The notes: generated by a model not told the origin, from the sequence alone. A stretch of DNA of 64,000 nt from Candidatus Sulfotelmatobacter sp. (GCA_035503455.1 DATJTK010000074.1:3536-67535), one strand, 5' to 3'; numbered from the stretch's first letter, positions 8,425 through 58,043 are shown. Program-made: numbers and translations.

Positions 8425-8491
8425 TTCGGTGTACACGCTTTAGCGTGCTCCTGCATTATGCCTGGAACACCCTAAAGGGTGGACACCAAAC
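8425..8491 (+). repeat. Palindromic two-hairpin element (copy 1 of 3)
   Basis: GGTGTACACGCTTTAGCGTGCTCC..GGAACACCCTAAAGGGTGGACACCAAAC. Same family as 43475..43532 (inverted) and 56150..56236. Confidence 0.85.
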
Positions 8492-43415: not shown

Positions 43416-43474
43416 GAATGGAATTTTAGATAAAAGGCGGAGGATGTCAGGGAGAAATTGCTAGTGGCCTAATC

Positions 43475-43532
43475 GGTTTGGTGTCCACCCTTCAGGGTGT
43501 TCCGGAGCACGCTAAAGCGTGTACACCAAACC
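43475..43532 (-). repeat. Palindromic two-hairpin element (copy 2 of 3, compact form)
   Basis: GGTTTGGTGTCCACCCTTCAGGGTGTTCCGGAGCACGCTAAAGCGTGTACACCAAACC. The terminal 10 nt are reverse complements, and there are two internal hairpins. Confidence 0.9.
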
Positions 43533-43669
43533 AAAATAGGACACTCCCGATAAATTGATCGCAATGATTCCACTTGTCTTATTTTGAAAGTGGCGCACGT
43601 TGATGGGTGGAGGATTGGAGCCCGATGGCTCGGGGCACAAAAAGGAGCAGGGAAATAAAAGGATATTCT

Positions 43670-44455: not shown

Positions 44456-44625
44456 AGGTTTCTTTCCATTGGTTGTTTGCTGAATTTCCCATCGATCCAA
44501 TTTAATATCCGGAAAGGCAAATGTTTTAAACGTCGGTTGCTGATTGCTTACCATATGTTGTTCGCCTTTCCGTTTTTGATGCCTGGTCATCGCCAAGTGC
44601 TGTACGCCAGTACAATTGGTACTGC

Positions 44626-44704
44626 CACCGCCGTCTCGGTGCGTGTTCCTCGAGACTGGCGGCGAGACGCCGCCCGAACCGGCAGGCGAGACGCCTACCC
44701 TACG
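44626..44704 (-). repeat. GGCAGGCGAGACGCC-type repeat (related to segments inside the 59.2/59.6 kb direct repeats)
   Basis: CCGAACCGGCAGGCGAGACGCCTACCCTACG is the reverse complement of CGTAGGGTAGaCGTCTCGCCTGCCGGTTCGG at 59319-59349 and of the matching segment at about 59738-59768. Confidence 0.8.
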
Positions 44705-45198
44705 GCCTGGAAGCTTCGTTCACGAAATCGCGAGTGTAGGGTGTTGAAAAGGTGAACGAAGTTTTTTGAGACCAAAAAACGGGCTTTTTATTGGGAAATT
44801 CGAATAGTTTTTCGTTCACGCCAGGCGTGTTTTGATATGCGTTCGTTTACCAGTTCGTGCACGAAATGGCGCCTGGAAATGGGGAGCCGCGAAATACTCG
44901 AACCAGACGAAATCGGGCATGTCGGCGGGTGGGTGGGTGTGCTCCGCAAACCCGTAACACCCGTAACGGTTACATGCCTCAAAATCAATGACTTAAGGGT
45001 TAACAAACCATTAACCGGGGGGTTAACAAAGATACGCAAGTTATTGAATGTAACAAGTTTAAGTGTTAACAGGACATGGGCTGCACACCGCTATGTTTTC
45101 TTCGATATAAAAAAAGGGTTTTGGCATTGAAAGATAGCTTGCAAAGCCAAGGGATGGGAGGATAATCGCCGATATGACCGCAAAACTCAGATTGCAGC

Positions 45199-46641
45199 AT
45201 GAACAACAAGCCAAATGGGAGATCCCAGTCTAAACCCAGTTGGACGATTGGCGCAAAACGAACTGCTGGAATTGGCCTGGTTTGCGCATTAGTCATTGCA
45301 ATTTTTGCCTGGAACGCTTACTGGGACTTTACTCAATTAGACATTCCACGCGCGGAAGATTGCTACTATAACCTGTTAGTGCAGGGATTTCGCGCAGGTC
45401 AACTTAATGTAAAACGAGAACCACCGCCCGCTCTCGCCCGCCTTCCCGATCCATATAATCCAACTGCCATTCGTCCATATTTACACAGCAAGCAATCCGG
45501 CATTATCTATGACATGAGCTATTACAAGGGGAAGTTATACCTGTATTTCGGACCTTCGCCGGCTTTGGTGCTTTTCTGGCCTTATGTCACCCTGACCGGG
45601 CACTATATTTCGCAGAAGGGTGCGGTCGTGATTTTTCTCGCAATCGGCTTCGTGACCAGCGCGGTCTTATTATGGGCGCTCTGGCGGCGTTACTTTCCGG
45701 AAGCGAGGATTTGGGTTCTTTCCGTCGGCATACTCATACTGGCTTTGGTCCCTGGCCTGCCGCAAGTGCTATCGACCTGTGGCATTAATGTAGTTGCGAG
45801 AACTTGTGCGTTTGCGTTTACCATGCTCGCTTTGGCGGCGATTTGGTGCGCGTTGCATGAGCCGAAACGGCGGGTGATTTGGCTGTCGTCGGCAAGTCTG
45901 GCTTACGGATTGGCGATAGGGTCGGTGCCCTCATTATTGTTTGGCGCAATAATACTTTTGATGCCTGTGGCTCAGGCATGGCGTTCGGCAACTGAACCGG
46001 TTTCCCGCAGGGGGGTTGCGTTGCTTTTAGCGGCTGCGGCCGGTCCATTGATGCTAATCGGGATTGGGCTGATGCTTTACAATACGCTGCGTTTTGGCAG
46101 CCCATCTGAATTTGGCTGGCACTATCAGATAGGCGGTTTTCGGCAAATTGCCACCCACCCATTCAGTCTGCGCTACCTTTGGTTCAACTTTTTCTTCTAT
46201 TTTCTGGACCCGACACACTGGACAAGTCATATCCCTCTTTTGCGGGCTTTCCACTCTTTGCCGCTTCCATCAGGTTACCAAATGTCGGGAGGATCTTACG
46301 GTGGAATTCTAATCATCTATCCGCTGGCGTGGCTGGCTTTGGCTGCGCCGCTGGCATGGAGGGGCAGGCCGGCGGAAGAGGTTTCCGGCTTGCGCTGGTT
46401 TGTGGCGGCGATAGTTTCGCTATTCGTAATTAATGCATTGACGGTTTGCCTCTTTTGTTCTGCCTACAGCCGCTATGAATTGGATTTCCTCCCAGCTCTG
46501 ATGATGCTGGCTGCCATAGGTGTCTTTGGTTTGGAACGGTCATTGGCAGATTATCCAGCCTGGGGGCGCGTAACGCGCTGGATTTGTTGCTCGCTGGTAG
46601 CCTATTCGGTTGGATTTCATGTATTTTTAATCGGAGCATAA
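45199..46641 (+). CDS. Polytopic membrane protein, paralog of the membrane domain of 4041..6176 (no TPR tail)
   Basis: Shared blocks: EDCYYNLLVQGFRAGQLNV, DMSYYKGKLYLYFGPSPAL, FGAIILLMPVAQAW, LMLYN..RFG.P.EFGWHYQ, HWTSH, YELDFLP. Confidence 0.8.
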   Translation: MNNKPNGRSQSKPSWTIGAKRTAGIGLVCALVIAIFAWNAYWDFTQLDIPRAEDCYYNLLVQGFRAGQLNVKREPPPALARLPDPYNPTAIRPYLHSKQSGIIYDMSYYKGKLYLYFGPSPALVLFWPYVTLTGHYISQKGAVVIFLAIGFVTSAVLLWALWRRYFPEARIWVLSVGILILALVPGLPQVLSTCGINVVARTCAFAFTMLALAAIWCALHEPKRRVIWLSSASLAYGLAIGSVPSLLFGAIILLMPVAQAWRSATEPVSRRGVALLLAAAAGPLMLIGIGLMLYNTLRFGSPSEFGWHYQIGGFRQIATHPFSLRYLWFNFFFYFLDPTHWTSHIPLLRAFHSLPLPSGYQMSGGSYGGILIIYPLAWLALAAPLAWRGRPAEEVSGLRWFVAAIVSLFVINALTVCLFCSAYSRYELDFLPALMMLAAIGVFGLERSLADYPAWGRVTRWICCSLVAYSVGFHVFLIGA

Positions 46642-47098
46642 AACCGACATTCCGCGTCATCGCATTCGCCAAAAATTTAAAGGGGGGGCAATGAGCCGCC
46701 GATGGCATTGGCCACGCTGCCCTCCAGCTCCGTAGGAGAGCAACCGCCAAAATCGGAATATAATGGCGGGAATAGTGTAGGCCGTGTGTCCTCACACGGC
46801 GCTTCCCGCTCATCGTCCATACACCGTCCAGAACCGGAAGATTCGTAAGAACTCGCTTCGCGTCTTGGAGTGCGGTGGCAAGTCTGCGCGACACCGCTTT
46901 TCGCACTTCATTGGACTTTCAAACGGCGATTGACGCGTCGAAGTGGGCTCCCCGAAACCGGGGGTTAATTGGAAGCGCAATATTTGTAGTAAACGCTCGC
47001 CAAAAAAACCTTCCCAGGCGCCGCAGACCGAGTTTCTGCGTGTTGACAGCGATTGCCGCGCAGCAAATACTTCGGCAACCTGGGAAACCACATTGGAA

Positions 47099-48463
47099 AT
47101 GTCAGATAGATTGCGACCGATACAGGCGTATTTGTTTCGCCTGATGTGTTCAGCCATTTTGTGCGCCGTACTCGCCGGCTGTTCTTTGGCCGCGACTCAT
47201 TCAAAATCAGGAGATCCCGCGGTCAATGTCAATCTCCCGTGGGATTGGTCGGGAATTATAGGCACCGGGCAGAGCCTGTCAGTCGGCGCGCGCGGCCTGC
47301 CGGTTCTTTCAACGAACCAGCCGTATCATAATCTCAAACTTTCGACCGATCACCTGCCCTGGCCGATCGACCCGAACGACACCCATCTGACGCTGACGCC
47401 GCTGGTCGAACCCGTTGGCAGGCTCGCTCGGCGCTGGGGGCCTCCGAGTTCATGGCCGGAAAACATTTACGGTGAAACTCCGCATTCGGCTATGGCCAAC
47501 GAAATCACCGCGCTGATCCGCGCAAACGGGGACCGTGACTTCGTTAGCGTTCACTGTGCAGTCGGTGAAGGCGGTCGGGGAATGATTTACCTGAAAAAGA
47601 ATCCCGTTAAGAACGGAGTCAGCGGCCGGTCTTATGAGGCGGCCATGATTGCAACCAAAGCCATTACCCGCCTGGCCAAGGCCGCGGGTAAAACATACGG
47701 GGTCGGGGCAATTATCCTCACCCACGGCGAAACCGACGCGACAAACGCCGATTACGAGAATGAACTTCGGCAACTTTGGTCTGATTACAACACCGACATC
47801 CCGGCTATCACCGGGCAGAGACAAAAAATCCAGATGATCGTGTCACAGCAAAATTCCTGTGCCGACCACTCGGCGTCCGCTCTCGCGCAATGGAGGATCG
47901 GCGTGGACTATCCCGCGGACATCGCATGCTCGGGTCCAAAATATCAATACCCCTACGCGCCCGACTGCATCCACCTGACTGCTGATGGATACCGCCAACT
48001 CGGTGAGAAGTACGGACAAATCTATTACGAGCGTGTGATTCTCAAAAAAAACTGGCAGCTGCTGGAACCTGTTGGCATCGAACGCAACGGCAGGACTATC
48101 ACCGTTCGCTATCATGTTCCCGTCCCGCCGCTGATGTGGGCCGCGGATTTTGAACTGCCTCATCGGTCCATCGCGGAGTGGAGGAATGGCAAGGGTTTCG
48201 AAGTCTGCTCTGCGGTTGGTGACAGGATTGCGATTGCGTCCGTAACCATTTCCGGGGATGCAGTGATCATTACGTGCGCATCCGACCCCGGCCCCGGCGC
48301 GCGCGTGGGTTATGCCATGACCGGTGAAAAGCCGCGCATGACCGCTCCGTTTCCAGGTACCTTCCGCTGGGGATTGCTTCGAGATTCCGATCCGTTCGTT
48401 GGCGCGGTCACAGGGTTGGCGCAACCCAATTACAGCGTCGCGTTCGAAATGTCAGTGCATTGA
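47099..48463 (+). CDS. Lipoprotein, SASA/DUF303-like carbohydrate esterase candidate
   Basis: Lipobox LAGC. GTGQSLSVG, ILTHGETDA and DCIHLTADGYRQLG resemble the GQS / HQGE / DxxH blocks of sialate-O-acetylesterase-like enzymes. Confidence 0.5.
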   Translation: MSDRLRPIQAYLFRLMCSAILCAVLAGCSLAATHSKSGDPAVNVNLPWDWSGIIGTGQSLSVGARGLPVLSTNQPYHNLKLSTDHLPWPIDPNDTHLTLTPLVEPVGRLARRWGPPSSWPENIYGETPHSAMANEITALIRANGDRDFVSVHCAVGEGGRGMIYLKKNPVKNGVSGRSYEAAMIATKAITRLAKAAGKTYGVGAIILTHGETDATNADYENELRQLWSDYNTDIPAITGQRQKIQMIVSQQNSCADHSASALAQWRIGVDYPADIACSGPKYQYPYAPDCIHLTADGYRQLGEKYGQIYYERVILKKNWQLLEPVGIERNGRTITVRYHVPVPPLMWAADFELPHRSIAEWRNGKGFEVCSAVGDRIAIASVTISGDAVIITCASDPGPGARVGYAMTGEKPRMTAPFPGTFRWGLLRDSDPFVGAVTGLAQPNYSVAFEMSVH

Positions 48464-48501
48464 GCGACGAATTGCCTAAAAGCTCGTGCACGCATCAGGG
48501 A

Positions 48502-49311
48502 TTATCTGATATTCCCACTGCACCCGTTCCACGTTTCTAATACTAAAGAGTGCTCAAATTGCATGATGTCCTCGTAGTCAAAGTTATCAGGAATGCGCAG
48601 CGGCGTCGGGTAAAGTCGAACCGGGCATTCTCCACGCTGACTTTGATAGGTTACATTTGCGTTCGGCATTTGCCCCAAACGCAAAAGCAAATGGTTAAAC
48701 TGAACGTTGAATTTGAATCCGTCCCCATTATTTAGGACCTGGTCTTGTGGCTTGCCGCCGTTTATGACATGGAAGTGTCTCGTAATTGTGCCGCCTACTT
48801 TAGAAGCAACGGACTTGGAATACGCCAAATCTGCCCAGCAGTTTTCGGGCAGGATTCCGTCCTTTACCTTTTGCATCACATCTGCCGAAAACTCGACCGG
48901 GTACTCGCCCTGCAAGCTGGCCTTGCTGAACATAATGGCCGTTTTCATCAGCCATTGCGCCAGCTTGTTCCGCTCTGACCTCAATTCCTCAATCATCATC
49001 AAAGCCAGTTTCGGCCACTGTGGTTCAATCAGATAGCCAAGCCGCGACTCAAACCATGCTTCCAAATCATTCATCCATCCGTTGTTACACTTTGCGCAAA
49101 CGTGACGGACTGTAAGGTTTTGGATTAAATGTCCGTTTCGGGTGAAAGGCTCTCTCCCTTCGATGGATAGTCCGGCGACTACTGGATACTTGACTGCGCC
49201 TGCACGCTCGCAAAGGCGCAGGGCTAAAACGTGTTCTCGACTGTCTGCGGCAGAACCGCAGAAAACGCAGGAACGACCCGGAGCCGTAGCGGCCTGTGTG
49301 GTCTGATTCAC
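48502..49311 (-). CDS. HNH-type (HNH_5-like) zinc-finger nuclease domain protein with unknown C-terminal domain
   Basis: CVFCGS...SREHV ... RHVCAKCNNGWMNDLE matches the CxxC..EH...CxxCN beta-beta-alpha-Me layout. The C-terminal 170 aa or so have no recognisable family. Confidence 0.65.
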   Translation of the reverse strand: MNQTTQAATAPGRSCVFCGSAADSREHVLALRLCERAGAVKYPVVAGLSIEGREPFTRNGHLIQNLTVRHVCAKCNNGWMNDLEAWFESRLGYLIEPQWPKLALMMIEELRSERNKLAQWLMKTAIMFSKASLQGEYPVEFSADVMQKVKDGILPENCWADLAYSKSVASKVGGTITRHFHVINGGKPQDQVLNNGDGFKFNVQFNHLLLRLGQMPNANVTYQSQRGECPVRLYPTPLRIPDNFDYEDIMQFEHSLVLETWNGCSGNIR

Positions 49312-49341
49312 CGTACTTAATATTTGATGTTCAGCCCACGA

Positions 49342-49830
49342 TTAGCAACGTGGCCTCGGACAGCATTTGGGCCCGCAGGAGCCGCGAGTTTGAATCTTCT
49401 GAAGTGTTTGAACTTTCTTAGTGGACGACGAAGAGTTTTCGGCTAGACGAAGGATATTTTCAGCTTCATGTTTTTCGGTGAGCGTCAGGCTATGCAGAAT
49501 TTGACGGATGTTCTTCTCATACACTCGGGCGGCCAAGTTTGGGGCTAAATGTAGAAAGTCTGGCCCCGTTTCTTCGTAAAGAATGAATTTGTCAAACCAT
49601 ACCAATGGGCCACCCCCGTGAATCTCTCCCTTGTGTGCGCCGATGCCGACCCAGTTGATTTTGCCATCTATAGAATGCGAGCTTGCTTCGCTGCCGATGC
49701 CGCCGACACCGATGACAGCATCGAACTCCCAATTGCGGACGCTCCCCATGCAGTCCTCAACGCCGAACCACCCATCCTTCCGTGGGTCGCCGGGATGGGT
49801 TCGCTTGTATATCAGGATACGCTTGGACAT
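49342..49830 (-). CDS. Hypothetical protein (162 aa), Cys-rich C-terminus
   Basis: ORF in the operon. No motif recognised (YKRTHPGDP...DCMGSVRNWEFDAVIGVGGIG...; the tail is GSCGPKCCPRPRC). Confidence 0.6.
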   Translation of the reverse strand: MSKRILIYKRTHPGDPRKDGWFGVEDCMGSVRNWEFDAVIGVGGIGSEASSHSIDGKINWVGIGAHKGEIHGGGPLVWFDKFILYEETGPDFLHLAPNLAARVYEKNIRQILHSLTLTEKHEAENILRLAENSSSSTKKVQTLQKIQTRGSCGPKCCPRPRC

Positions 49831-49856
49831 TTTCGGCACTTTGCCCTGCGCGACTA

Positions 49857-50084
49857 TCAAGACAGTGAGTAAGTAACCATTTCGCCAGTGAGTCGCAAAT
49901 AGGTCGTGTCCTGGCTGTTTGCGCGGATAGTGCCTTCACCAATCATGTCTGCAATCACCAAATGGGCTGTATTTGGAGGAATCGAAAGCTGTTTGGAGAT
50001 TTGGCTGAATGGCACGGGACCACCCCAGCCTCGCAAAAAATCGGCGATGCCTATTTTCAAATTCTTAATTTTTAGATTGTCCAT
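49857..50084 (-). CDS. Small winged-helix-like DNA-binding protein (75 aa)
   Basis: The helix-turn-helix-wing pattern FSQISKQLSIPPNTAHLVIADMIGEGTIRAN..TYLRLT is inferred from sequence only. First gene of the three-gene operon. Confidence 0.45.
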   Translation of the reverse strand: MDNLKIKNLKIGIADFLRGWGGPVPFSQISKQLSIPPNTAHLVIADMIGEGTIRANSQDTTYLRLTGEMVTYSLS

Positions 50085-50266
50085 ATATTAGCGTAATATC
50101 CGCTGCTCACATAACTGTGTCAATGGCTGTTGGCTAAATTTTTACGTCCACCTTTTCCTGCTCCCAGCACCGCGAGCAAAACAGAACGGGGGGCTGTCGG
50201 GTTGGGCTTGGCGTGCCGCGTGAAAGGCTTGTCGCACATGCCGCCGCCAGCTATCTTGGAATTGTT

Positions 50267-50728
50267 ATGGGCCTGTTCAAATTATTGAAAGGCGCTATCG
50301 GCATACCGCACTACGCGGGAGTCGCGGACTGCAAGAAAGCGGCGCTCTCTGGCGACGCGCAGGCTCAGTTCACTCTAGGTGGTTTCTACGAACGCGGCCA
50401 GTTTGGTTTGCCACATGACTATACTGAATCTGGGAAGTGGTATCGGAAAGCCGCAGAACAAGACCACCACGCCGCACAGCTTTATTTAGGGGTGTACCTT
50501 GCTCAAGGCCAAGGAGTGGAACAGAACGTCGTCGAGGGCTTGAAGTGGATTCTGCTGGCAAAGCGGGGAGGAGCATGGGACCGCCATGCGGCGAACGATA
50601 CACAAACGCGACTTGAGGCTCTGATGACGGACCAACAGATTGCCGAAGCGCGTGTCATGGCGGCTATTTTTTCGGCGGAACGCGGCGACAAAGAGGCTGC
50701 GCGATGGTTGAAAACGCTGCGACGGTGA
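50267..50728 (+). CDS. Sel1-repeat (TPR-like) protein
   Basis: GDAQAQFTLGGFYERGQFGLPHDYTESGKWYRKAAEQDHHAAQLYLGVYLAQGQGVEQNVVEGLKWILLA gives at least two clear Sel1 repeats. Confidence 0.82.
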   Translation: MGLFKLLKGAIGIPHYAGVADCKKAALSGDAQAQFTLGGFYERGQFGLPHDYTESGKWYRKAAEQDHHAAQLYLGVYLAQGQGVEQNVVEGLKWILLAKRGGAWDRHAANDTQTRLEALMTDQQIAEARVMAAIFSAERGDKEAARWLKTLRR

Positions 50729-50812
50729 CAGCGGCAACATTTGCTCGGTAAGCAGGGCGTTGAACAACGTGCGCAACGAAGGGGCGGAATTGTTGAGGCC
50801 CACAGGGAAGTC

Positions 50813-51319
50813 CTAACGGGGATAATCAATTTCCAAAGCCTTTGCGATGGCCTCGATGCCCTTTTCGTTTTTAAATTCATCCAGCGCTTCTCCCTTGGTG
50901 TGAACTTTTTGCCAGCCCGATTCCATGATTTTATGGTGCTTGCGAATCCATTCCGCAGGCAACGTGTATAGCTCCAGTTCTGTAAAGCCTTCAAGCACGG
51001 GCTTGCGCCGGTAGAAATAACCGATGTTCATAAACACCACGATGAGGTACTCGAACGCGTCTATAGTTTTTTCTTTGACCGGAAAAGCGCGGTCACAATC
51101 TGTCTGGTAGCGGCTTTTCACCTGAACGCGAATTAGCTTTTTTGCATTGCTTGGGTGGACGCAAATTAGGTCGTATCCCGCATTATACGGCGGAGCTTTG
51201 TACGCGAGAATGTTCCGGCGCATCAAATAACCCATAGCCAAATGTTCTGCTCCTAGCGAAACTACGGGCAGCCTTCTGGCTTCTTTCTTTTCCTTCGTGG
51301 TTAAACTTTCGATTCCCAT
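50813..51319 (-). CDS. PD-(D/E)xK-fold nuclease-like protein (DUF4365/Hjc-like core)
   Basis: GAEHLAMGYL ... AGYDLICV ... IRVQVKSR gives an E ... D ... QxK arrangement. Start set at the ATG at 51319. Confidence 0.5.
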   Translation of the reverse strand: MGIESLTTKEKKEARRLPVVSLGAEHLAMGYLMRRNILAYKAPPYNAGYDLICVHPSNAKKLIRVQVKSRYQTDCDRAFPVKEKTIDAFEYLIVVFMNIGYFYRRKPVLEGFTELELYTLPAEWIRKHHKIMESGWQKVHTKGEALDEFKNEKGIEAIAKALEIDYPR

Positions 51320-51332
51320 AATGATGTCATGT

Positions 51333-51632
51333 TCACTTGCGCTTTTTGGCGGATTGTTTCCTGACTCGACGGACGCGAGACAGATTGCCCCTGCCGTCAC
51401 GTGCCCCAAGTTCCTTGCCGACTTTGATTCGGCGGCTGCCGCATTTGCAAACAGGCACCATGTCCCTGGCGCTCACCCGCTGTCTGATAACGCTCGTGGC
51501 ATCCGGTTTCTCGCTTTTGAATCCTTCCCATGAAGTTTCAGAACGGCCCCAGTTATCCGAAGAGCTAATGCAAAAGCCTTTTGCGCCGCAATCTTCGCAA
51601 TGCGCCTCATACGTTGTATGTTCCCAACTCAT
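51333..51632 (-). CDS. Small zinc-ribbon-like protein with basic tail
   Basis: HCEDCGAKGF ... PVCKCGS cysteine pairs. Its stop is 14 nt upstream of the nuclease-like gene. The start is uncertain. Confidence 0.35.
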   Translation of the reverse strand: MSWEHTTYEAHCEDCGAKGFCISSSDNWGRSETSWEGFKSEKPDATSVIRQRVSARDMVPVCKCGSRRIKVGKELGARDGRGNLSRVRRVRKQSAKKRK

Positions 51633-52048
51633 TACTGCACAGTATCCGGGATGGCAAAACGGTGTCAATCGCTGCTCGACGAAAGTGCGCAAAACGTGCC
51701 GGCCGCGCTCTACGCTCGCGCAGGACGCGCCGGGACCGGAAAAGGGCAGGGATTCTGTTTTGTGCTCATTTTTTGACAGCCTAACGCCCGGAGAGGAACA
51801 GGGCTGCTTCGCTCTGCACGCTTTCCCCCATTTTCCAAAGAAACTGAATGGAGGCGAGGGCCGGAATCGTGCTTCCCTTCTCGGCCACAGTCGCCCCGCT
51901 TTATCAGTGTTTGCTACCGCTCTATTTCGTCCAGAGACTTCTTAATCGCTCGCTTGATGGCATCTCGATATCGGGTGTTTGTCGTTAATAAGTATCACGC
52001 ACGAATTGCCTTGTTTGCCTTGCTGTCCGTCTGGCAGCATCCGCCATC

Positions 52049-53953
52049 ATGAGTAAGATTGGGAACCAATTTCCCCCTTCCCCCAACCCCACAGCATCGG
52101 TGTCGGCGCGGCAAAAAGGCAGATTCCAGCCAGTCAACTGGCTGGAATCCGCGCACGGAAGCCGGACCATCCACAGACTGCTCGCCTGCATTTCGCTATT
52201 GATGTCCCTCTCATCCGGCTCGGCGGCCGGACTGATCCTCGCCAACCATGGTCAGAGTCGTTACACGATCGTCATTGCCAGGGATGCGAGTCCGACGGTG
52301 AAGCGGGCGGCGCAGGAACTCGGTGACGACCTGAAAGAGATTTCGGGCGCGGCGCTGCCGGTGGTGAACGGTAAACCCCACGGCCCGGCGATTTTTGTCG
52401 GGGCAAGTACGTTTTTGCCATCCGGCTTTCGCCAGGAACGGCTCGACACGCTGCCGGCGGAAGGCTTCATTGTTCGAACGGACCGCCACAATCTTTATCT
52501 GGCCGGCCACGACGACCGAGGCACGCTGTATGCGGTTTACTCCTTTCTTGAAGACCAATTGGGCGCCCGCTGGTATGCGCCGGATGCCACAATCCTGCCA
52601 CCCAAAAACGTGGTGCAGGTTCCAAGTTTGAATGAGACCCAGTCCCCGGCCTTCACTTATCGGGACACCGACGAGGCGATTGTTTTTGGAAACGCCCAAT
52701 GGGATGCGCACCTCAAGCTGAATGGCGTCAGCGTGCCCGATCAAGCCGACCTGGGTGGCATCAACCGGCTTTTCAACGGGGCGGAGAACTTTTATAGCCT
52801 GGTTCCGCCCAGCCGCTATTTCACCGACCACCCTGATTACTACAGCCTGATAAACGGAAAACGAAAGTCCTCACCGGATTCCCAGCTTTGCCTGAGCAAT
52901 CCCGGCGTGTTCAAGGTGGTGGTGGACGAACTGGTGGCGGAGGCAAAGGCCAATCCGAAAGAGCTGACCCTGGGTCTCTCACCCAACGACGCCGTAGATG
53001 GAAGCTGCCAGTGCGACGACTGCCGGGCAGCCGATGCGAAGTTTGGCTCCCCGGCCGGAACTCTTCTGGACTTCGTGAACCGGGTCGCGTCGGCAGTGCA
53101 GGCGGCGCTGCCGGGGCGTAAGATCTGGGTGGAAACGCTGGCCTATCAATACACCGAGAAAGCCCCGACGCCCGGCACCATTGCCCCGGCCGAAAACGTG
53201 CTGGTCTGCCTGGCCCCCATCTACGCCTGCGACGGCCATCCGCTTGCCAGCGACCCGCAGAACAAAAAGTCCAACGAGGCGCTTCTGGCCTGGAGCAAGG
53301 TTGCCCGGGGTCATTTGCAGGTCTGGCACTATGTCACCAACTTTGCACACTATCTCCAACCTTATCCCGACTGGGACGAACTGGGCGCCGACATGGCCTA
53401 TTACCGGGCTAATGGCGTCTCCGGCATGTTCTGCGAAGGTGACTATCAGGGGAACTGCGAGTTGCAGACCATGCGCACCTGGGTGATGGCCCACCTCTTT
53501 TGGAATCCGCATCAGGATGTATGGGCGCTGGTTCGTGACTTCTGCGATGGCTACTACGGCAAGGCCGGCAACGATATCTACAACTATCTCCGGCTGTTCC
53601 ATGACCGGTTGCAGCAGCCCGGTGTCCACCTGCATCTCTACGATCCGCCCACCTCTCCGCTTTTCAGTGCCGGGTTACTCAAGTCGGCCAACCAAATCTT
53701 CGACCACGCCGAGACTGCCGCCGACAACCCGGAGATAAAGCGCCGCGTGCAGGAGGCCCGGCTGGGGATCCGCTATGTTGAACTGGTAAACGATATCCCC
53801 GGCAGGAATGCCACGATGCCGGAACGGGAAGCATTTCGGGCCCGGCTGGATGCTTTCATCGCTGACATCACCCGATTCAAAATCGCATCCCTCGCCGAAG
53901 GCCATAACTCCGACGAATGGATCAAGAACATGAAGGCGGCAGCAGGGGATTAA
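52049..53953 (+). CDS. DUF4838 domain protein (putative secreted glycoside hydrolase)
   Basis: ANHGQSRYTIVIARDASPTVKRAAQELGDDLKEISGAALPVV...GFIVRT..NLYLAGHDDRGTLYAVYSFLEDQLGARWY is the typical DUF4838 N-terminal pattern as I recall it. Confidence 0.75.
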   Translation: MSKIGNQFPPSPNPTASVSARQKGRFQPVNWLESAHGSRTIHRLLACISLLMSLSSGSAAGLILANHGQSRYTIVIARDASPTVKRAAQELGDDLKEISGAALPVVNGKPHGPAIFVGASTFLPSGFRQERLDTLPAEGFIVRTDRHNLYLAGHDDRGTLYAVYSFLEDQLGARWYAPDATILPPKNVVQVPSLNETQSPAFTYRDTDEAIVFGNAQWDAHLKLNGVSVPDQADLGGINRLFNGAENFYSLVPPSRYFTDHPDYYSLINGKRKSSPDSQLCLSNPGVFKVVVDELVAEAKANPKELTLGLSPNDAVDGSCQCDDCRAADAKFGSPAGTLLDFVNRVASAVQAALPGRKIWVETLAYQYTEKAPTPGTIAPAENVLVCLAPIYACDGHPLASDPQNKKSNEALLAWSKVARGHLQVWHYVTNFAHYLQPYPDWDELGADMAYYRANGVSGMFCEGDYQGNCELQTMRTWVMAHLFWNPHQDVWALVRDFCDGYYGKAGNDIYNYLRLFHDRLQQPGVHLHLYDPPTSPLFSAGLLKSANQIFDHAETAADNPEIKRRVQEARLGIRYVELVNDIPGRNATMPEREAFRARLDAFIADITRFKIASLAEGHNSDEWIKNMKAAAGD

Positions 53954-53988
53954 ACCCAGATGCTTTGCGGCTGACTCATTGATTTTAT

Positions 53989-54065
53989 TGGTGCACGCAT
54001 CAGGAGTTGAACCTGAAACCTTCTGATCCGTAGTCAGATGCTCTATCCAATTGAGCTATGCGTGC
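53989..54065 (-). tRNA. tRNA-Arg (anticodon ACG), CCA encoded
   Basis: Minus-strand sequence GCACGCA-TA-GCTC-AATTGGATA-GAGC-A-TCTGA-CTACGGA-TCAGA-AGGTT-TCAGG-TTCAACT-CCTGA-TGCGTGC-A-CCA folds as a full cloverleaf. Confidence 0.95.
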
Positions 54066-54232: not shown

Positions 54233-54243
54233 GCCCTCGTCTG

Positions 54244-54270
54244 CAGCCTCACGCAAAGGGCGCAAAGTCC
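54244..54270 (+). repeat. 27-nt direct repeat, left copy (partner at 56059..56085)
   Basis: CAGCCTCACGCAAAGGGCGCAAAGTCC is identical at both sites. Together they bracket hipBA. Confidence 0.85.
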
Positions 54271-54290
54271 GCAAAGGAATTTTGGCATTT

Positions 54291-55634
54291 TCAATCCTTT
54301 GCGCCTGTCCGGCGTAGCCTTTGGCGGAGCCGGGGCCGTTGCGGCCTCTGCTTGGGAGTCGCGCGACCACGAACGACTCGCAGGTTTGGAAACCTGCGGT
54401 ACGTCTGTGAGCCAATCAACTGTTTGGCTTCGGCTATGAGTGGATGTTGAAATGCGCTGGCATAGGCATCGAGCGTGGAGGCTTTGATGCGCAGTCGCCG
54501 TCCCGTTTCGCGCCAACCGGAGACAGCGGTAAAAACCTCTCGAAGAATTTCTTTCGATTCACTGGGTCCGAGGCCGAAACGTTCGGCAGCGTCTAATGCA
54601 ATTCCAATGGCCGGTTCAGCCAGATCCTCGGTAATGGGCATTTTATTGATATAGACGCGATCCACTTCCGGCACGGGATTGATGTCGTAAGCTGGTGAGA
54701 GCGACCAGCGTCCGGGCTCGGGCATCAAGAAACCATGATTACGAGGATGATCGTCATAGTTGCTGGCCAGAAGCGAAAAAATCAGACGGCGCCATAATTC
54801 ACGCAGGTCGGAGGGAACGTCGTTGCCAAACTGCCGGATGCCGTCGGCTAGCAATGTGTATGCGCCGGGATTACCTTGAGGCAAACCGAGCAGGCTCGAT
54901 GCGGAAACGAATGGAATGCGACTTTTGTCCACTCGGTCAAAGCGGGTAATGACCGCAACACCGTATCCGCCGACCGGTACGAGTTGATGCTCTGCCACGT
55001 GGACGCCCGCTTTTTCGGCCAGCGTGAGCGCGAGAATTTCTCCTGCGGCGATGTCGCGCGTATCGTCAGGTTTCGGGAACTTCGCAATGGCAAGCCGGCC
55101 GTCCCTTAGGGCGACGGCTGCTTTTGGGCGAGCGCCGCCTAATGGCGAACCCGCCCCAAGAAGAAAGCGCAAATCCTGGGCAGTTTCGTTTTCACTGTGA
55201 ACCGCATCGGTGGCGCGCAGCAAGGCGTTGAGACGGACCAATGGCGGGATTTTTCCGCTCGTGGCGGCAAGAAACGGACTTTTGGGGTCCAGGCGAAAAC
55301 GCAGAGCGCCGACACGCGACATATCATCCAGTGCCAAAACATAATCAATATCACGATATGGTTGTTGCGGGAGAACTTTTTTCCGGACAGCACGTTCAAT
55401 CAAGACCCGTCCCCATCGGTCGGGGCCGCAGTCCTGGATCGCGCCAAACAAAGTCGCGCCATGATAAGTCCCTCGTTGCAACGGCAGAGATGTCGGGTCA
55501 ATGGCAAAAGTATCCTCGCGTTGAAGCCATTCGAGAGCATATTCAAACGAAACGGACGCTCCCCGTTCTGCCGCAAAAAGCCGTCCAACAAGATGCGTTT
55601 GTCCTCTCCAATCAATATGAACTTCGAGGGTCAT
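54291..55634 (-). CDS. hipA: HipA-family Ser/Thr kinase toxin (type II TA)
   Basis: N-terminal coupling domain plus GAGSPLGGARPKA and NYDDHPRNHGFL catalytic motifs. The last 40 codons or so run through repeat sequence (see findings). Confidence 0.88.
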   Translation of the reverse strand: MTLEVHIDWRGQTHLVGRLFAAERGASVSFEYALEWLQREDTFAIDPTSLPLQRGTYHGATLFGAIQDCGPDRWGRVLIERAVRKKVLPQQPYRDIDYVLALDDMSRVGALRFRLDPKSPFLAATSGKIPPLVRLNALLRATDAVHSENETAQDLRFLLGAGSPLGGARPKAAVALRDGRLAIAKFPKPDDTRDIAAGEILALTLAEKAGVHVAEHQLVPVGGYGVAVITRFDRVDKSRIPFVSASSLLGLPQGNPGAYTLLADGIRQFGNDVPSDLRELWRRLIFSLLASNYDDHPRNHGFLMPEPGRWSLSPAYDINPVPEVDRVYINKMPITEDLAEPAIGIALDAAERFGLGPSESKEILREVFTAVSGWRETGRRLRIKASTLDAYASAFQHPLIAEAKQLIGSQTYRRFPNLRVVRGRATPKQRPQRPRLRQRLRRTGAKD

Positions 55635-55987
55635 AAATGGGAGCGGCGATGGATGCGTTGGGGCAGACGGCGTTCATCCATGCTCAGGGCGAGTTCATCG
55701 CTGGCGGGCGCGGCAAGATTTGCCAGACGGTTATGCAATTGAAGAACAAAAACGGCCGTCGCCAAAGTTCCAATAGCGATGGTCGGGTCCCCGCGTTCAA
55801 GCCGCCAGAGCGTGTCGCGGCTGACAAATAGCCGGGACGCCATATCATTTGTGGAGATACCACGTTTCCGCCGGGCCAAAGCCAGGTCGCGTCCCAATTT
55901 GCGAAGCGCATGGGATGCCGGCAACGGAATGGAGCCAGTTTTTGACATGGACATAGTGTCTGCTATATCTGACAAAATGTCAAACAA
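55631..55987 (-). CDS. XRE-family HTH antitoxin (HipB-like)
   Basis: LALARRKRGISTNDMASRLFVSRDTLWRLERGDP HTH. There is a 4-nt overlap with the hipA start. Confidence 0.8.
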   Translation of the reverse strand: MFDILSDIADTMSMSKTGSIPLPASHALRKLGRDLALARRKRGISTNDMASRLFVSRDTLWRLERGDPTIAIGTLATAVFVLQLHNRLANLAAPASDELALSMDERRLPQRIHRRSHL

Positions 55988-56058
55988 GGTCCGGTTTATA
56001 AGACGTTATTTGTTTTTAAGGGCCGGGCGAGGCGTTCCCAGGTCGTGAGAAATAGCTC

Positions 56059-56085
56059 CAGCCTCACGCAAAGGGCGCAAAGTCC
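56059..56085 (+). repeat. 27-nt direct repeat, right copy
   Basis: Identical to 54244..54270. Confidence 0.85.
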
Positions 56086-56149
56086 ACAGCGCGGCGGAGC
56101 CGCAACCAAAAGGTGAAACATGGATAAAATGGCTTTTGGTCTTAAATTC

Positions 56150-56236
56150 GTTTGGTGTACACGCTTTAGCGTGCTCCGGAGCAGCTTCGAGACTGGACGG
56201 CGAACCCGGAACACCCTGAAGGGTGGACACCAAACC
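56150..56236 (+). repeat. Palindromic two-hairpin element (copy 3 of 3, with 28-nt central insertion)
   Basis: GTTTGGTGTACACGCTTTAGCGTGCTCCGGA-[28 nt]-CCGGAACACCCTGAAGGGTGGACACCAAACC. Confidence 0.9.
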
Positions 56237-56314
56237 GAATTCGGCTGCTACATTTTGCTTGCAATCGTTCCTAATTGTAATCATAATTAGTTCCTATTGT
56301 GAGTTGCCTTTTAT

Positions 56315-57178
56315 ATGAAATCAAACCTTCTCATTTGCGTCGTCATCGCTTCCGTTAGCTTTCTGCCGCGCGCTTTCGGACAAGGCGCTTTGACACCGCC
56401 GGGACCGCCGGGGCCCACGATGCTGACGCTTTCGCAGGTCGAGCCGCGAATACCGGTGGATGCCTCTCATACCCCAGGGAACAGTAGCGGGGAATTTGTC
56501 ATTACCAATTCCGGCTCGTATTTTCTGACAACAAACATTATTGGCATCAGCGGCAAAGACGGAATTGATATTTATACCAACGATGTGACGTTGGATCTAA
56601 ATGGCTTCTCGCTGACGGGCGTCAGCGGCAGTCTTAGCGAGGGTGTCCAGATATTTCCCGGTTGCACCAACATAACCGTGCGCAATGGCGCCATTCGCGG
56701 CTGGAGCCAGCATGGCGTTTACAGTGTTGGAAACAATGTGACTTTGGAGGGGCTGTCTGTTTCGGGTAACGCTAATTACGGCCTTGTCGTTGTCGGGGTC
56801 AGCGTCATTCGAAATTGTATGTCCAGTGGTAATTATTACACGGGCATAGCAATTGAAGCCAACGGCTGTCTGGTATCAGGCAATGTTTGTGCCGGAGATG
56901 ATATAGGCGGCACGTCGGGTAACGGGGGTATAGTCATTTTGGGTTCCTATAATCGCATTGAAGGCAACCATATAACCGGGACTGGCGCCGGCGGGGATGG
57001 CATCGTGGTCGAAACCTACGGCCTGTGCACCAACAACATCATCATTCAAAATTCCGTGCAGGGCAGCGGCGCAAATGATTATGTATTCAACACGTTGCAA
57101 CTTGTTGGCCCGATCATTACCAATAGTGTTTCCGGAGTCATCACCAATTCAAATCCCTGGGCGAACTTTGGGTTTTAA
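56315..57178 (+). CDS. Secreted right-handed parallel beta-helix repeat protein (paralog A)
   Basis: Signal peptide and N-terminal LTPPGPPGPTMLTLSQVEPRIPV. Periodic G/N-rich coils (VTLDLNGFSLTG, ITVRNGAIRG, NRIEGNHITG). Confidence 0.78.
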   Translation: MKSNLLICVVIASVSFLPRAFGQGALTPPGPPGPTMLTLSQVEPRIPVDASHTPGNSSGEFVITNSGSYFLTTNIIGISGKDGIDIYTNDVTLDLNGFSLTGVSGSLSEGVQIFPGCTNITVRNGAIRGWSQHGVYSVGNNVTLEGLSVSGNANYGLVVVGVSVIRNCMSSGNYYTGIAIEANGCLVSGNVCAGDDIGGTSGNGGIVILGSYNRIEGNHITGTGAGGDGIVVETYGLCTNNIIIQNSVQGSGANDYVFNTLQLVGPIITNSVSGVITNSNPWANFGF

Positions 57179-57197
57179 TCTTCAACGCACTGAAACA

Positions 57198-58043
57198 ATG
57201 AAAACTCCAATTTCAATCCTCGCCGTGTTAATCGCCGTGGGTCTCCAGCCATTGGCTTTGTTGGGGCAGGGCAGTCTCACGCCGTCTGGACCGCCCGCGC
57301 CGGGGATGCTGACGCTCGCGCAAGTTCAGCCACGCACGCCCGTGGACTCTGTTCATACTCCGGGCAACAGCGCCAACGAATTCGTCATTTCCAATCCCGG
57401 TTCCTATTACCTGACGACAAATATCATGGGCGTGAGCAGCGAGGAGGGGATAGACATTGTGGCGAGCGATGTGACGCTGGATTTGAACGGGTTTTCGTTG
57501 ATTGGTCCTTCGACTGCGTATTCCGGAATCGCCATCTATTCCACCGTAACCAACGTGGTGGTCCGGAACGGTATCATTAGTGGTTGGGGAACTCTGTATA
57601 ATGGCATTTCTTGCCTTGGGAACAACGTGGATTTTGAAAATCTTACTATTTACGGGGAACTCACGGGCATATCCTGTTTCGGCGACGGCGGCGTGATCAA
57701 AAATTGCACGCTGAGCCGCACCGGTCAGTATGGAATTTATTTAACCGGCTCGAATTATCTGGTGACCTGCAACAACTTTATTGAGATAAACACCGGGAAC
57801 AACGGAAACGGGGCGGCCATGTACATCGCTTCAGTCGGCAATCATATCGATGGCAATAATGTCATTGGCAACAATCCGGCGGGTTACGGACTTTGGGTCT
57901 TGGGCACCAACAACGTCGTCGTTCGCAACTCCATCTCAGGCAACGCGCCAAATAATTATGCCATCTCGAGTGTGCCCAATGACGTTGGCCCGATTGGCAA
58001 TGCGTCAACCAATACGAGCCCTTGGGGAAACATTTCAAATTAG
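57198..58043 (+). CDS. Secreted right-handed parallel beta-helix repeat protein (paralog B)
   Basis: Collinear with paralog A (LTPSGPPAPGMLTLAQVQPRTPVDSVHTPGNSANEFVISNPGSYYLTTNIMG...VTLDLNGFSLIG). Start at the ATG at 57198, 20 nt after the paralog A stop. Confidence 0.78.
   Translation: MKTPISILAVLIAVGLQPLALLGQGSLTPSGPPAPGMLTLAQVQPRTPVDSVHTPGNSANEFVISNPGSYYLTTNIMGVSSEEGIDIVASDVTLDLNGFSLIGPSTAYSGIAIYSTVTNVVVRNGIISGWGTLYNGISCLGNNVDFENLTIYGELTGISCFGDGGVIKNCTLSRTGQYGIYLTGSNYLVTCNNFIEINTGNNGNGAAMYIASVGNHIDGNNVIGNNPAGYGLWVLGTNNVVVRNSISGNAPNNYAISSVPNDVGPIGNASTNTSPWGNISN

What the first reader, a model, noticed from the sequence alone, without database searches (positions are those of the whole stretch)
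48486..54004. 14-bp direct repeat of the tRNA-Arg 3' end delimits a 5.5 kb segment with a sharply low-GC half and no integrase
GTGCACGCATCAGG occurs at 53991-54004, where it forms the T-stem 3' strand, acceptor 3' strand, discriminator base and first C of CCA of the minus-strand tRNA-Arg(ACG). It occurs again in the same orientation at 48486-48499. There it sits 22 nt after the stop of the esterase-like gene and 2 nt before the stop of the HNH gene. A specific 14-mer is expected about 5e-4 times by chance in 128 kb of two-strand sequence (128000/4^14). Hand counts of 60-nt lines give 42% GC (48541), 45% (49441) and 38% (50821), against 72% (47401) and 65% (53041). The compositional break therefore coincides with the left repeat. 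This is the classic attL/attR signature of a tRNA-integrated island. However, no integrase, excisionase or transposase is present, and the tRNA-proximal gene (DUF4838, 52049-53953) has host-like GC. The island is therefore either a decayed remnant or a composite.
Basis: partly seen in the sequence, partly recalled or inferred. Interest (0 to 1): 0.7.

Follow-up and report, generated by a model that had tools for sequence, protein, structure and literature searches.

The report
Integrase-less remnant island at tRNA-Arg
A 5.5 kb stretch next to a tRNA-Arg gene is most likely the worn-down remains of a small mobile element that once inserted into that tRNA; this is a common, well-understood kind of genomic scar and not a new system.

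Summary
The 14-mer GTGCACGCATCAGG is real and occurs at exactly the stated coordinates. It extends to 15 of 16 bases up to the last base of the tRNA. The distal copy is an end-anchored 3' fragment of tRNA-Arg(ACG), downstream of the gene, in the same orientation and in an intergenic gap, which is the geometry of an integration scar. Comparison supports this. In another genome with an identical tRNA (L053), an intact 5.45 kb Rep-integrase element is bounded by a 28-bp repeat that contains this 14-mer. Related elements with 28-bp repeats sit at tRNA-Arg in Limisphaerales MAGs. Orthologous tRNA loci in the nearest relatives lose similarity to the window exactly at the tRNA 3' end.

The "sharply low-GC half" is not confirmed. 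The left 3.5 kb has 51.9% GC against 55.1% for the window and 53.4% for the 4 kb to its left. No integrase, or detectable remnant of one, lies in the segment, and none was found among the large ORFs scanned from 17.7 to 63.8 kb. The "HNH" label is unproven. The tRNA-proximal DUF4838 gene has host-like composition.

Verdict: a decayed, composite, integrase-less tRNA islet. It is ordinary and of low interest.

The parts
53989..54065 (-). tRNA-Arg(ACG), intact, with encoded CCA; the integration target (attB side; current attL-like junction)
   Evidence: ARAGORN; Rfam RF00005 at 69.7 bits. The identical 74-nt sequence occurs in 14 metagenome contigs and in L053.
53991..54004 (.). tRNA-proximal copy of the 14-bp repeat: C74, discriminator, acceptor 3' strand and T-stem 3' strand
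   Evidence: family D10
48484..48499 (.). Displaced 3'-terminal tRNA fragment (attR-like scar). It is 14/14 exact at 48486-48499 and 15/16 when extended to the A76 position. It lies in the 38-nt gap between convergent genes.
   Evidence: Same register as the 28-bp repeats of the intact elements in L053 and L045-L050.
48494..48510 (.). Short inverted repeat ATCAG-GGATTAT-CTGAT that overlaps the distal fragment. It is a T-arm-like dyad shifted by 1 nt; its significance is uncertain.
   Evidence: Read directly from the sequence.
48502..49311 (-). 269-aa Cys-rich protein of unknown function, with conserved C15, C18, E26, H27, C72, C75, N76 and W79.
   Evidence: No Pfam, NCBIfam or PADLOC hit. HNH_5 scores E = 0.25. 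phrog_38451 (unknown function) scores 2.6e-8. About 90 homologue clusters, found in a tRNA-Ala integrase island with a type III R-M system (L024), 1.7 kb from a tRNA-Glu (L027), and beside an Eco57I/MmeI-like R-M gene (L028-30). AlphaFold2 model with pLDDT 87, no fold match.
49342..49860 (-). 172-aa ORFan; its start overlaps the stop of the 75-aa gene
   Evidence: no family; GC3 z = -0.96
49857..50084 (-). 75-aa small protein, winged-helix-like; the lowest GC3 of the window's genes
   Evidence: Weak PCI and HTH_IclR hits. A 55%-identical homologue lies 1.4 kb downstream of the identical tRNA-Arg in L037. GC3 z = -2.98.
50213..50728 (+). Sel1-repeat protein
   Evidence: Pfam Sel1, 1.6e-11
50813..51409 (-). 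198-aa protein (168 aa from a later start codon); possibly a PD-(D/E)xK nuclease, unproven
   Evidence: PDDEXK_5 at E = 0.056, below threshold. The single-sequence AlphaFold2 model is unusable, pLDDT 34.
51333..51692 (-). 119-aa ORF (99 aa as called in L002); doubtful gene
   Evidence: no family
52049..53953 (+). DUF4838 / GH67N-like glycoside-hydrolase-type gene. Its composition is host-like and it ends 35 nt from the tRNA 3' end, where intact elements carry the integrase.
   Evidence: Pfam 2.8e-84. GC 59.5%, GC3 z = +2.0, codon-usage z = +0.66. Homologues at 76-83% identity sit in unrelated contexts.
47099..48463 (+). SASA-like esterase; the presumed original chromosomal flank
54291..55987 (-). 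hipBA toxin-antitoxin pair on the 5' side of the tRNA. It is not part of the repeat-bounded segment, but it also looks inserted.
   Evidence: Pfam HipA_C 5.7e-44 and HTH_31. A 33-nt direct repeat at 54241-54273 and 56056-56088 brackets it.

Best explanation
The segment 48500-53990 lies between the tRNA-Arg(ACG) gene and a displaced copy of that gene's last 16 nt. [quoted passage not shown] In that reaction attP recombines with attB, the element supplies a new tRNA 3' end, and the original 3' end is pushed to the far side of the element.

The recombination module (integrase with or without excisionase) abuts the tRNA in intact relatives and has since been lost here. The repeat is shorter than in the intact elements (14-16 bp against 28 bp). 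The content is now a patchwork. It holds five small, slightly AT-richer ORFan genes, two of which belong to families also found in other tRNA-adjacent islets. It also holds a host-like DUF4838 gene in the position where the integrase should be. As it stands the segment cannot move by itself.

Shown: the repeat and its geometry; the use of the identical tRNA as an attachment site by intact elements; the absence of an integrase. Inferred: that this particular segment entered by such an event; the order of the losses; whether DUF4838 arrived as cargo or replaced the integrase module later.
For: 1. The end-anchored 3' fragment lies downstream, in the same orientation, in an intergenic gap. A direct match of 14 nt or more to the tRNA arose in 2 of 300 simulations. 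The best inverted match is 12 nt.
2. L053 has the identical tRNA and an intact 5.45 kb Rep-integrase element bounded by the repeat TGGTGCACGCATCAGGAGTTGAACCTGA, which contains the 14-mer in the same register.
3. L045-L050 carry 6.0-6.9 kb Rep / Xis(HTH_17) / Int elements, with a FitA-ParE pair in L046-L050, at tRNA-Arg(ACG), bounded by the equivalent 28-bp repeat. L036 has an integrase abutting the identical tRNA.
4. The orthologous loci L031, L037 and L042 share the tRNA and about 120 nt of 5' leader with the window (80-84% identity), and the similarity stops at position 53989.
5. Cargo families recur beside tRNA genes: a homologue of the 75-aa protein lies downstream of the identical tRNA in L037, and homologues of the 269-aa protein lie in a tRNA-Ala integrase island (L024) and next to a tRNA-Glu (L027).
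6. All five small genes have GC3 below the window mean.
7. In the 52 loci fetched by that point, the 14-mer occurs only inside tRNA-Arg, apart from two contigs of the same organism.
Against: No integrase or fragment of one is detectable; tblastn with three integrases at E up to 10 finds only the tail that is encoded by the tRNA itself. The identity block is 14-16 bp, not 28, and it excludes the T-loop. Either a different element family was involved or the distal site was truncated. The gene next to the tRNA, DUF4838, looks native by composition. The compositional signal is weak. No empty site, circular junction or island-free close relative was found, so insertion is not demonstrated for this locus. 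Exact 14-mer coincidences do occur in this sequence.
Confidence: 0.7

Rival explanations
1. The distal 14-mer is a chance match. The region downstream of the tRNA is simply a variable or rearranged stretch, for example turnover of accessory genes by homologous recombination or illegitimate insertion, and this segment has no history of site-specific integration.
For: Exact 14-mer pairs occur by chance in this window: two inverted pairs in 16 kb. There are also 12-nt exact and 16/18 tRNA-like matches inside coding sequences. No integrase is present. DUF4838 is host-like. The GC dip is mild. Gene order in this clade is fluid in any case.
Against: The match is anchored at the tRNA 3' end in the same register as proven att repeats on the identical tRNA. 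It lies on the correct side, in the correct orientation, in a 38-nt intergenic gap. The simulations give 2 of 300 before these constraints are applied.
Confidence: 0.17
2. Only the left 3.5 kb (48500 to about 52050) is foreign, and DUF4838 is the native neighbour of the tRNA. The small genes were inserted between DUF4838 and the esterase by a mechanism unrelated to the tRNA.
For: The compositional split falls at about 51.5-52.0 kb: GC is 51.9% against 59.5%, and GC3 z values are negative against +2.0. DUF4838 ends 35 nt from the tRNA, which leaves no room for a recombination module.
Against: The tRNA fragment at the far end would then be unexplained. DUF4838 homologues at 76-83% identity are not next to tRNA-Arg in any of the contexts examined (L019-L023), so native adjacency has no support.
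Confidence: 0.08
3. The segment is still mobile as a cis-mobilizable element (CIME-like). It keeps usable attL and attR sites and is excised or co-transferred when an integrase element of the L036/L053 family integrates in tandem or acts in trans.
For: The repeats are perfect over 14 bp. Integrase elements that target exactly this tRNA sequence exist in the same habitats. CIMEs are defined as having lost their integration and transfer genes while keeping attL and attR (PMC6323972).
Against: The distal site lacks the T-loop and T-stem half of the 28-bp repeat used by those elements. No integrase was found in the 64 kb. No circular or empty-site sequence was found. The Logan contig L001 is fully collinear with the chromosome.
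Confidence: 0.05

Closest known systems
tRNA-gene-integrated genomic islands as defined by Islander (tDNA plus displaced tDNA end fragment; Hudson et al. 2015, PMC4383910)
   Same: There is an intact tRNA and a 3' end fragment of it, displaced downstream in the same orientation and outside conserved coding sequence. The segment is 5.5 kb, within the 2-200 kb range.
   Different: No integrase gene lies in or overlaps the interval, so Islander's integrase filter would reject it. The fragment is only 14-16 nt long.
Intact Rep(G2P-like)-integrase elements at tRNA-Arg(ACG) in Verrucomicrobia-like MAGs; an HTH_17 excisionase-like gene is also called in L045-L051
   Same: They use the same target tRNA, identical in sequence in L053 and L036, on the same side and in the same orientation. 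Their size is similar (5.45-6.9 kb against 5.49 kb). The repeat starts in the same register at the tRNA 3' end.
   Different: Their repeat is 28 bp and includes the whole T arm. They carry rep and int genes, plus an HTH_17 excisionase-like gene in L045-L051. No gene is shared with the window segment apart from generic Sel1-repeat similarity to L045.
Cis-mobilizable elements (CIMEs) of streptococcal ICE families (definition in ICEberg 2.0, PMC6323972)
   Same: The segment is flanked by att-like direct repeats and lacks integration and transfer genes. It plausibly derives from an integrative element by deletion.
   Different: Whether the two sites still function is unknown, and the distal one looks truncated. 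No partner ICE or integrase is known for this genome. There is no evidence of mobilization.
tRNA-adjacent defence and toxin-antitoxin islets
   Same: The small ORFan genes have homologues beside R-M systems and tRNA genes (L024, L027, L028-30). A hipBA pair lies on the other side of the tRNA.
   Different: No protein of the segment matches PADLOC at a meaningful level. A defence function is only a guess from context.

Membership tests
tRNA-integrated genomic island (Islander criteria, PMC4383910) | Full-length tRNA or tmRNA gene at one end | tested here: met
   tRNA-Arg(ACG) at 53989-54065 on the minus strand
tRNA-integrated genomic island (Islander criteria, PMC4383910) | Cognate tDNA end fragment (not internal) at the other end | tested here: met
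   48484-48499 matches the last 16 nt of the gene at 15 of 16 positions, with 14 exact
tRNA-integrated genomic island (Islander criteria, PMC4383910) | 3' fragment lies downstream of the tDNA, in the same orientation | tested here: met
   Both copies are on the + strand and the distal copy is on the 3' side of the minus-strand tRNA
tRNA-integrated genomic island (Islander criteria, PMC4383910) | Fragment does not overlap a conserved protein domain | tested here: met
   It lies in the 38-nt gap between the esterase stop and the stop of the 269-aa gene. The competing near-matches at 1916 and 42182 lie inside coding sequences and fail this criterion.
tRNA-integrated genomic island (Islander criteria, PMC4383910) | Length 2-200 kb | tested here: met
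   5,505 bp from the start of one copy to the start of the other
tRNA-integrated genomic island (Islander criteria, PMC4383910) | Tyrosine integrase gene (PF00589) inside or overlapping the interval | tested here: not met
   Pfam scans of all ORFs in the interval and of the large ORFs from 17.7 to 63.8 kb find none. tblastn with three integrases finds no remnant.
Cis-mobilizable element (CIME; PMC6323972) | Has lost its integration and transfer genes | tested here: met
Cis-mobilizable element (CIME; PMC6323972) | Retains intact, functional attL and attR | tested here: inconclusive
   A 14-bp perfect repeat is present, but the distal site lacks 12 of the 28 bp used by the intact elements on the identical tRNA. 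Function cannot be tested in silico.
Cis-mobilizable element (CIME; PMC6323972) | Mobilized by a cognate integrative element (accretion or trans-excision) | not testable with these tools
   This needs read-level or experimental data. No empty-site or circular junction was recovered.
Rep-Int elements of tRNA-Arg (L053 / L045-L050 type) | 427-aa tyrosine integrase abutting the tRNA, with its C-terminal tail encoded by the tRNA 3' end | tested here: not met
   DUF4838 occupies that position. Only the 12 tRNA-encoded codons match.
Rep-Int elements of tRNA-Arg (L053 / L045-L050 type) | 28-bp direct repeat covering CCA, the acceptor 3' strand and the whole T arm | tested here: not met
   Only the outer 14-16 bp are repeated. 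The inner 12 bp match at 3 of 12 positions without gaps.
Rep-Int elements of tRNA-Arg (L053 / L045-L050 type) | Rep (REP_ORF2-G2P-like) gene | tested here: not met
   No hit by tblastn or Pfam
Prophage | Phage structural, replication or lysis genes | tested here: not met
   PHROGs returns only two families of unknown function. There are no relatives in IMG/VR.
   No Pfam hit at E <= 0.01, and HNH_5 scores E = 0.25. No PDB sequence or fold match. Only a CxxC...EH...CxxCN motif is conserved.

The most novel reading that the evidence does not exclude
The integrase-less, repeat-flanked segment may be a still-mobilizable hitchhiker: a CIME-like element in Verrucomicrobiota that is excised or carried along by the Rep-Int elements that target the very same tRNA-Arg sequence. 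Its 269-aa protein, which has a confident model with no fold match and recurs beside R-M systems and tRNA genes, may be an undescribed defence or addiction gene.
Probability: 0.08. Interest if true: 0.4.

Novelty: new member of a known kind. Interest (0 to 1): 0.2.

Why it matters
It matters little beyond annotation. The finding marks tRNA-Arg(ACG) as an integration hotspot in this poorly studied, Verrucomicrobia-like soil and peat lineage, and it delimits a small accessory islet. It also shows how such islets decay to a bare tRNA fragment. The useful by-products are the intact 5.5-6.9 kb Rep-integrase elements with a precisely mapped 28-bp attachment site, and a conserved 269-aa island-borne protein family of unknown fold.

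Tried and rejected
1. Sixteen genome loci with esterase homologues (50-83% amino-acid identity) and five loci with DUF4838 homologues (76-83%) share no neighbouring genes with the window and have no tRNA-Arg nearby. The test is uninformative at this evolutionary distance. Sequence similarity to the closest esterase loci ends at the stop codon.

2. Contig-end clue. Logan contig L001 equals window 48447-54046 exactly, which at first suggested graph branch points at both ends of the island. The ends do not fall where an empty-site or circle junction would place them for k = 31. The right end lies inside the tRNA, which many species share. A second contig of the same run (L052) stops at about 54248. 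I rejected this as evidence of excision.

3. Integrase remnants. tblastn with the integrases of L036, L046 and L024, plus the xis and rep genes of L046, against the whole window at E <= 10 found nothing except the tRNA-encoded tail.

4. Second internal att scar. A local alignment of the tRNA 3' half against the window found no further intergenic match. The matches at 1916 and 42182 are inside coding sequences.

5. Dispersed-repeat explanation. It is rejected.

6. Function of the cargo genes. PADLOC, NCBIfam, PDB sequence search, and AlphaFold2 plus Foldseek against PDB and BFVD for the 269-aa protein gave no assignment. The single-sequence model of the 168-aa form of the 198-aa ORF was unusable.

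7. IMG/VR. It holds no relatives of the 269-aa family and no copy of the tRNA 3' 30-mer.

8. Target-site duplication by a transposon. I rejected this by inference: 14 bp is too long for a typical duplication, and there are no terminal inverted repeats and no transposase.

Full report
**The observation.** The 14-mer GTGCACGCATCAGG occurs at 48486-48499 and 53991-54004 on the + strand and nowhere else in the window, even with one mismatch on either strand. ARAGORN and Rfam place a single tRNA, tRNA-Arg(ACG), at 53989-54065 on the minus strand. The distal copy extends to 15 of 16 matches up to the position of A76: TcGTGCACGCATCAGG against TGGTGCACGCATCAGG. It is therefore an end fragment of the gene. 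It lies downstream of the tRNA in the same orientation, in the 38-nt gap between the stop codon of a SASA-like esterase (47099-48463) and the stop codon of a convergent 269-aa gene.

**How much is chance.** I simulated 300 first-order Markov sequences. The 77-nt tRNA found a direct exact match of 14 nt or more in 2 of 300 and of 12 nt or more in 38 of 300. The longest inverted match in the real window is 12 nt. Exact 14-mer pairs are not rare when all words are compared with all others: two inverted pairs occur in the same 16 kb. Two tRNA-like near-matches, 1916-1933 (16 of 18) and 42182-42201 (18 of 20 with one gap), lie inside coding sequences and are noise. The weight of the observation therefore comes from its anchoring at the tRNA 3' end, its side, its orientation and its intergenic position. 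Together these bring the chance probability to roughly 1e-3 to 1e-4; that figure is my estimate, not a tool output.

**Composition.** However, 60-nt lines in this window have a standard deviation of 7.8 points, so those five lines are extremes.
- GC is 55.1% for the window and 51.9% for 48500-52048.
- GC is 53.4% for the 4 kb to the left of the repeat (44500-48485).
- GC is 59.7% for DUF4838 and 53.5% for the 4 kb to the right of the tRNA.

There is no sharp break at the left repeat. What remains is a mild, consistent dip. All five small genes have GC3 below the window mean (z from -0.96 to -2.98). The 3.5 kb window starting at 48501 ranks 8th of 122 for tetranucleotide deviation. DUF4838 has GC3 z = +2.0 and typical codon usage.

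**Gene content.** The interval holds these ORFs:
- A 269-aa Cys-rich protein (48502-49311, minus strand).
- A 172-aa ORFan (49342-49860, minus strand).
- A 75-aa winged-helix-like protein (49857-50084, minus strand).
- A Sel1-repeat protein (50213-50728, plus strand).
- A 198-aa protein with a sub-threshold PD-(D/E)xK hint (50813-51409, minus strand).
- A doubtful 119-aa ORF (51333-51692, minus strand).
- A DUF4838/GH67N-type gene (52049-53953, plus strand) that ends 35 nt from the tRNA.

No integrase, excisionase or transposase is present in the interval. None was found among the large ORFs scanned from 17.7 to 63.8 kb. tblastn with three integrases, an excisionase and a Rep protein from related elements finds no remnant. 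The "HNH" label is not supported. No Pfam, NCBIfam, PADLOC or PDB sequence hit was obtained, and HNH_5 scores only E = 0.25. A confident AlphaFold2 model (pLDDT 87, pTM 0.86) has no Foldseek match at E <= 0.001 in PDB or BFVD. Only a CxxC...EH...CxxCN motif is conserved.

The source is an 86-kb MAG contig labelled Candidatus Sulfotelmatobacter, but its relatives are mostly Verrucomicrobiia/Limisphaerales. Esterase homologues (50-83% identity, 16 loci) and DUF4838 homologues (76-83% identity, five loci) share no neighbours with the window and have no tRNA-Arg nearby. Gene order is too fluid at this distance for the test to decide anything. Two near-identical contigs from other data sets (L001, L002) carry the same arrangement. 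No empty site was found.

**Relatives: the tRNA itself.** A scan of JGI metagenomes with the exact 74-nt tRNA gave 14 loci.
- Three of them (L031, L037, L042) also share about 120 nt of the 5' leader with the window at 80-84% identity, so they are orthologous loci. The similarity stops exactly at the tRNA 3' end, position 53989.
- What lies downstream differs in every case: recR and ybaB in L034 and L041; a glycosidase-like gene in L031; a YafQ/RelE-like toxin plus a 55%-identical homologue of the window's 75-aa protein in L037; and a tyrosine integrase abutting the tRNA in L036.

I followed that integrase family to longer contigs and found complete elements.
- L053 has a tRNA identical to the window's. 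A 5.45 kb element with a Rep-like gene, an Rce1-like/TPR gene and the integrase is bounded by the 28-bp direct repeat TGGTGCACGCATCAGGAGTTGAACCTGA, which contains the window's 14-mer in the same end-anchored register.
- In L045-L050 (Limisphaerales MAGs), 6.0-6.9 kb elements with Rep, Xis (HTH_17) and Int genes, and a FitA-ParE pair in L046-L050, sit at tRNA-Arg(ACG) with the equivalent 28-bp repeat.

This tRNA sequence is therefore a proven attachment site, and the window's distal fragment is what such an event leaves behind. In the 52 loci fetched by that point, the 14-mer occurs only inside tRNA-Arg genes, apart from two contigs of the same organism, so it is not a dispersed repeat.

**Cargo families elsewhere.** Homologues of the 269-aa protein (about 90 clusters, 36-77% identity among near-full-length homologues) occur in three kinds of context:
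- In an island next to tRNA-Ala(GGC), with an adjacent integrase and a type III R-M system (L024).
- 1.7 kb downstream of a tRNA-Glu, without an integrase (L027).
- Beside an Eco57I/MmeI-like R-M gene and a QueC-like gene (L028-30).

This is the distribution expected of accessory, island-borne genes. Their function is unknown.

**Interpretation.** The best reading, at confidence 0.7, is a decayed and composite tRNA-integrated islet. An element entered by tyrosine-integrase recombination at the tRNA 3' end and displaced the original 3' end to 48484-48499. The recombination module was later lost.

Two features need explaining.
- The identity block is only 14-16 bp with sharp edges; the inner 12 bp match at 3 of 12 positions. 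Either a different element family with a shorter attP/attB identity was responsible, or an internal deletion or replacement removed the inner half of a 28-bp repeat together with the end of the element. The stop codon of the 269-aa gene is only 2 nt away, whereas about 165 nt of spacer follow the distal repeat in L053. I cannot tell these two possibilities apart.
- DUF4838 sits where the integrase should be and looks native by composition. It may be cargo from a close relative, or a later replacement.

**Rival readings.**
- A chance 14-mer in an ordinary variable region (0.17).
- A foreign left half with a native DUF4838 (0.08).
- A still-mobilizable CIME-like element (0.05; definition from PMC6323972).

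Under the Islander criteria (PMC4383910) the locus meets every filter except the integrase filter.

**Verdict.** The repeat is real and is most probably an att scar. The compositional claim is overstated, and the HNH label is unproven. The object is an ordinary remnant of a well-known process, so interest is low. The decisive missing evidence is read-level detection of an empty site or a circular junction, or a genome at 95% ANI or higher that lacks the segment.

Noticed in passing
window 54241-54273 and 56056-56088, flanking hipBA (54291-55987): A 33-nt direct repeat (94% identity, 24-nt exact core, only two copies in the window) brackets the HipA/HipB toxin-antitoxin pair on the 5' side of the tRNA. 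Orthologous tRNA loci lose similarity to the window at about 54186. hipBA therefore also looks like an inserted cassette.
   Followed up: partly
window 8462-8487 (-), 43473-43542 (+), 56139-56238 (-): This is a REP-like dispersed repeat built of two small palindromes (GGTGTCCACCCTTCAGGGTG... and CACGCTAAAGCGTG). The copies at 43.5 kb and 56.2 kb form a 33-nt perfect, 68-nt 79% inverted pair around a 12.6 kb block that holds the esterase, the repeat-bounded segment, the tRNA and hipBA.
   Followed up: partly
window 48502-49311 (-); homologues P0121-P0211: This is a 269-aa protein family with conserved CxxC...EH...CxxCN residues and a confident AlphaFold2 model (pLDDT 87, pTM 0.86). It has no Foldseek match at E <= 0.001 in PDB or BFVD. 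It recurs beside R-M systems and tRNA genes, so it is a possible uncharacterised defence or addiction gene.
   Followed up: partly
L053 3221-8726; L045 5215-11274; L046/L047 4319-11274; L050 664-7619: These are intact 5.45-6.9 kb integrative elements at tRNA-Arg(ACG) with a precisely mapped 28-bp direct repeat. They carry a G2P-like Rep and a 427-aa (400 aa as called in L053) tyrosine integrase; L045-L050 also carry an HTH_17 excisionase-like gene, and L046-L050 a FitA/ParE pair. The last ~12 codons of the 427-aa reading frame are encoded by the tRNA 3' end.
   Followed up: yes
L037 830-2139: Downstream of a tRNA-Arg identical to the window's lie a YafQ/RelE-like toxin gene, a 162-aa ORF, and a homologue of the window's 75-aa protein (55% identity) coupled to a TraB/GumN-family gene. 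The small winged-helix gene appears to travel with variable downstream partners.
   Followed up: partly
whole window (source contig): NCBI names the source MAG Candidatus Sulfotelmatobacter (Acidobacteriota). The closest homologues of the esterase, DUF4838 and the integrase-bearing loci are mostly labelled Verrucomicrobiia or Limisphaerales. The bin label is probably wrong, or the contig is mis-binned.
   Followed up: no
window 56315-58043: Tandem paralogous right-handed beta-helix genes: a 241-nt direct repeat at 70% identity with a spacing of 886 nt, plus a further 60-nt repeat at 877 nt.
   Followed up: no
window 1916-1933 and 42182-42201: Two further tRNA-Arg-like stretches in direct orientation (16/18, and 18/20 with one gap). 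Both lie inside coding sequences, a DUF892-like gene and a GH79-like gene. They are useful as a yardstick for how good a chance match can look.
   Followed up: yes
L001 (= window 48447-54046) and L052 (= window ~54248-55945): Logan contigs of run SRR8879137 break about 39 nt to the left of the distal repeat, inside the tRNA, and again about 43 nt past the hipA stop (window ~54248), between the tRNA leader and hipA. The breaks are best explained by k-mers shared between species (the tRNA and its leader), not by excision, but the left break is unexplained.
   Followed up: partly
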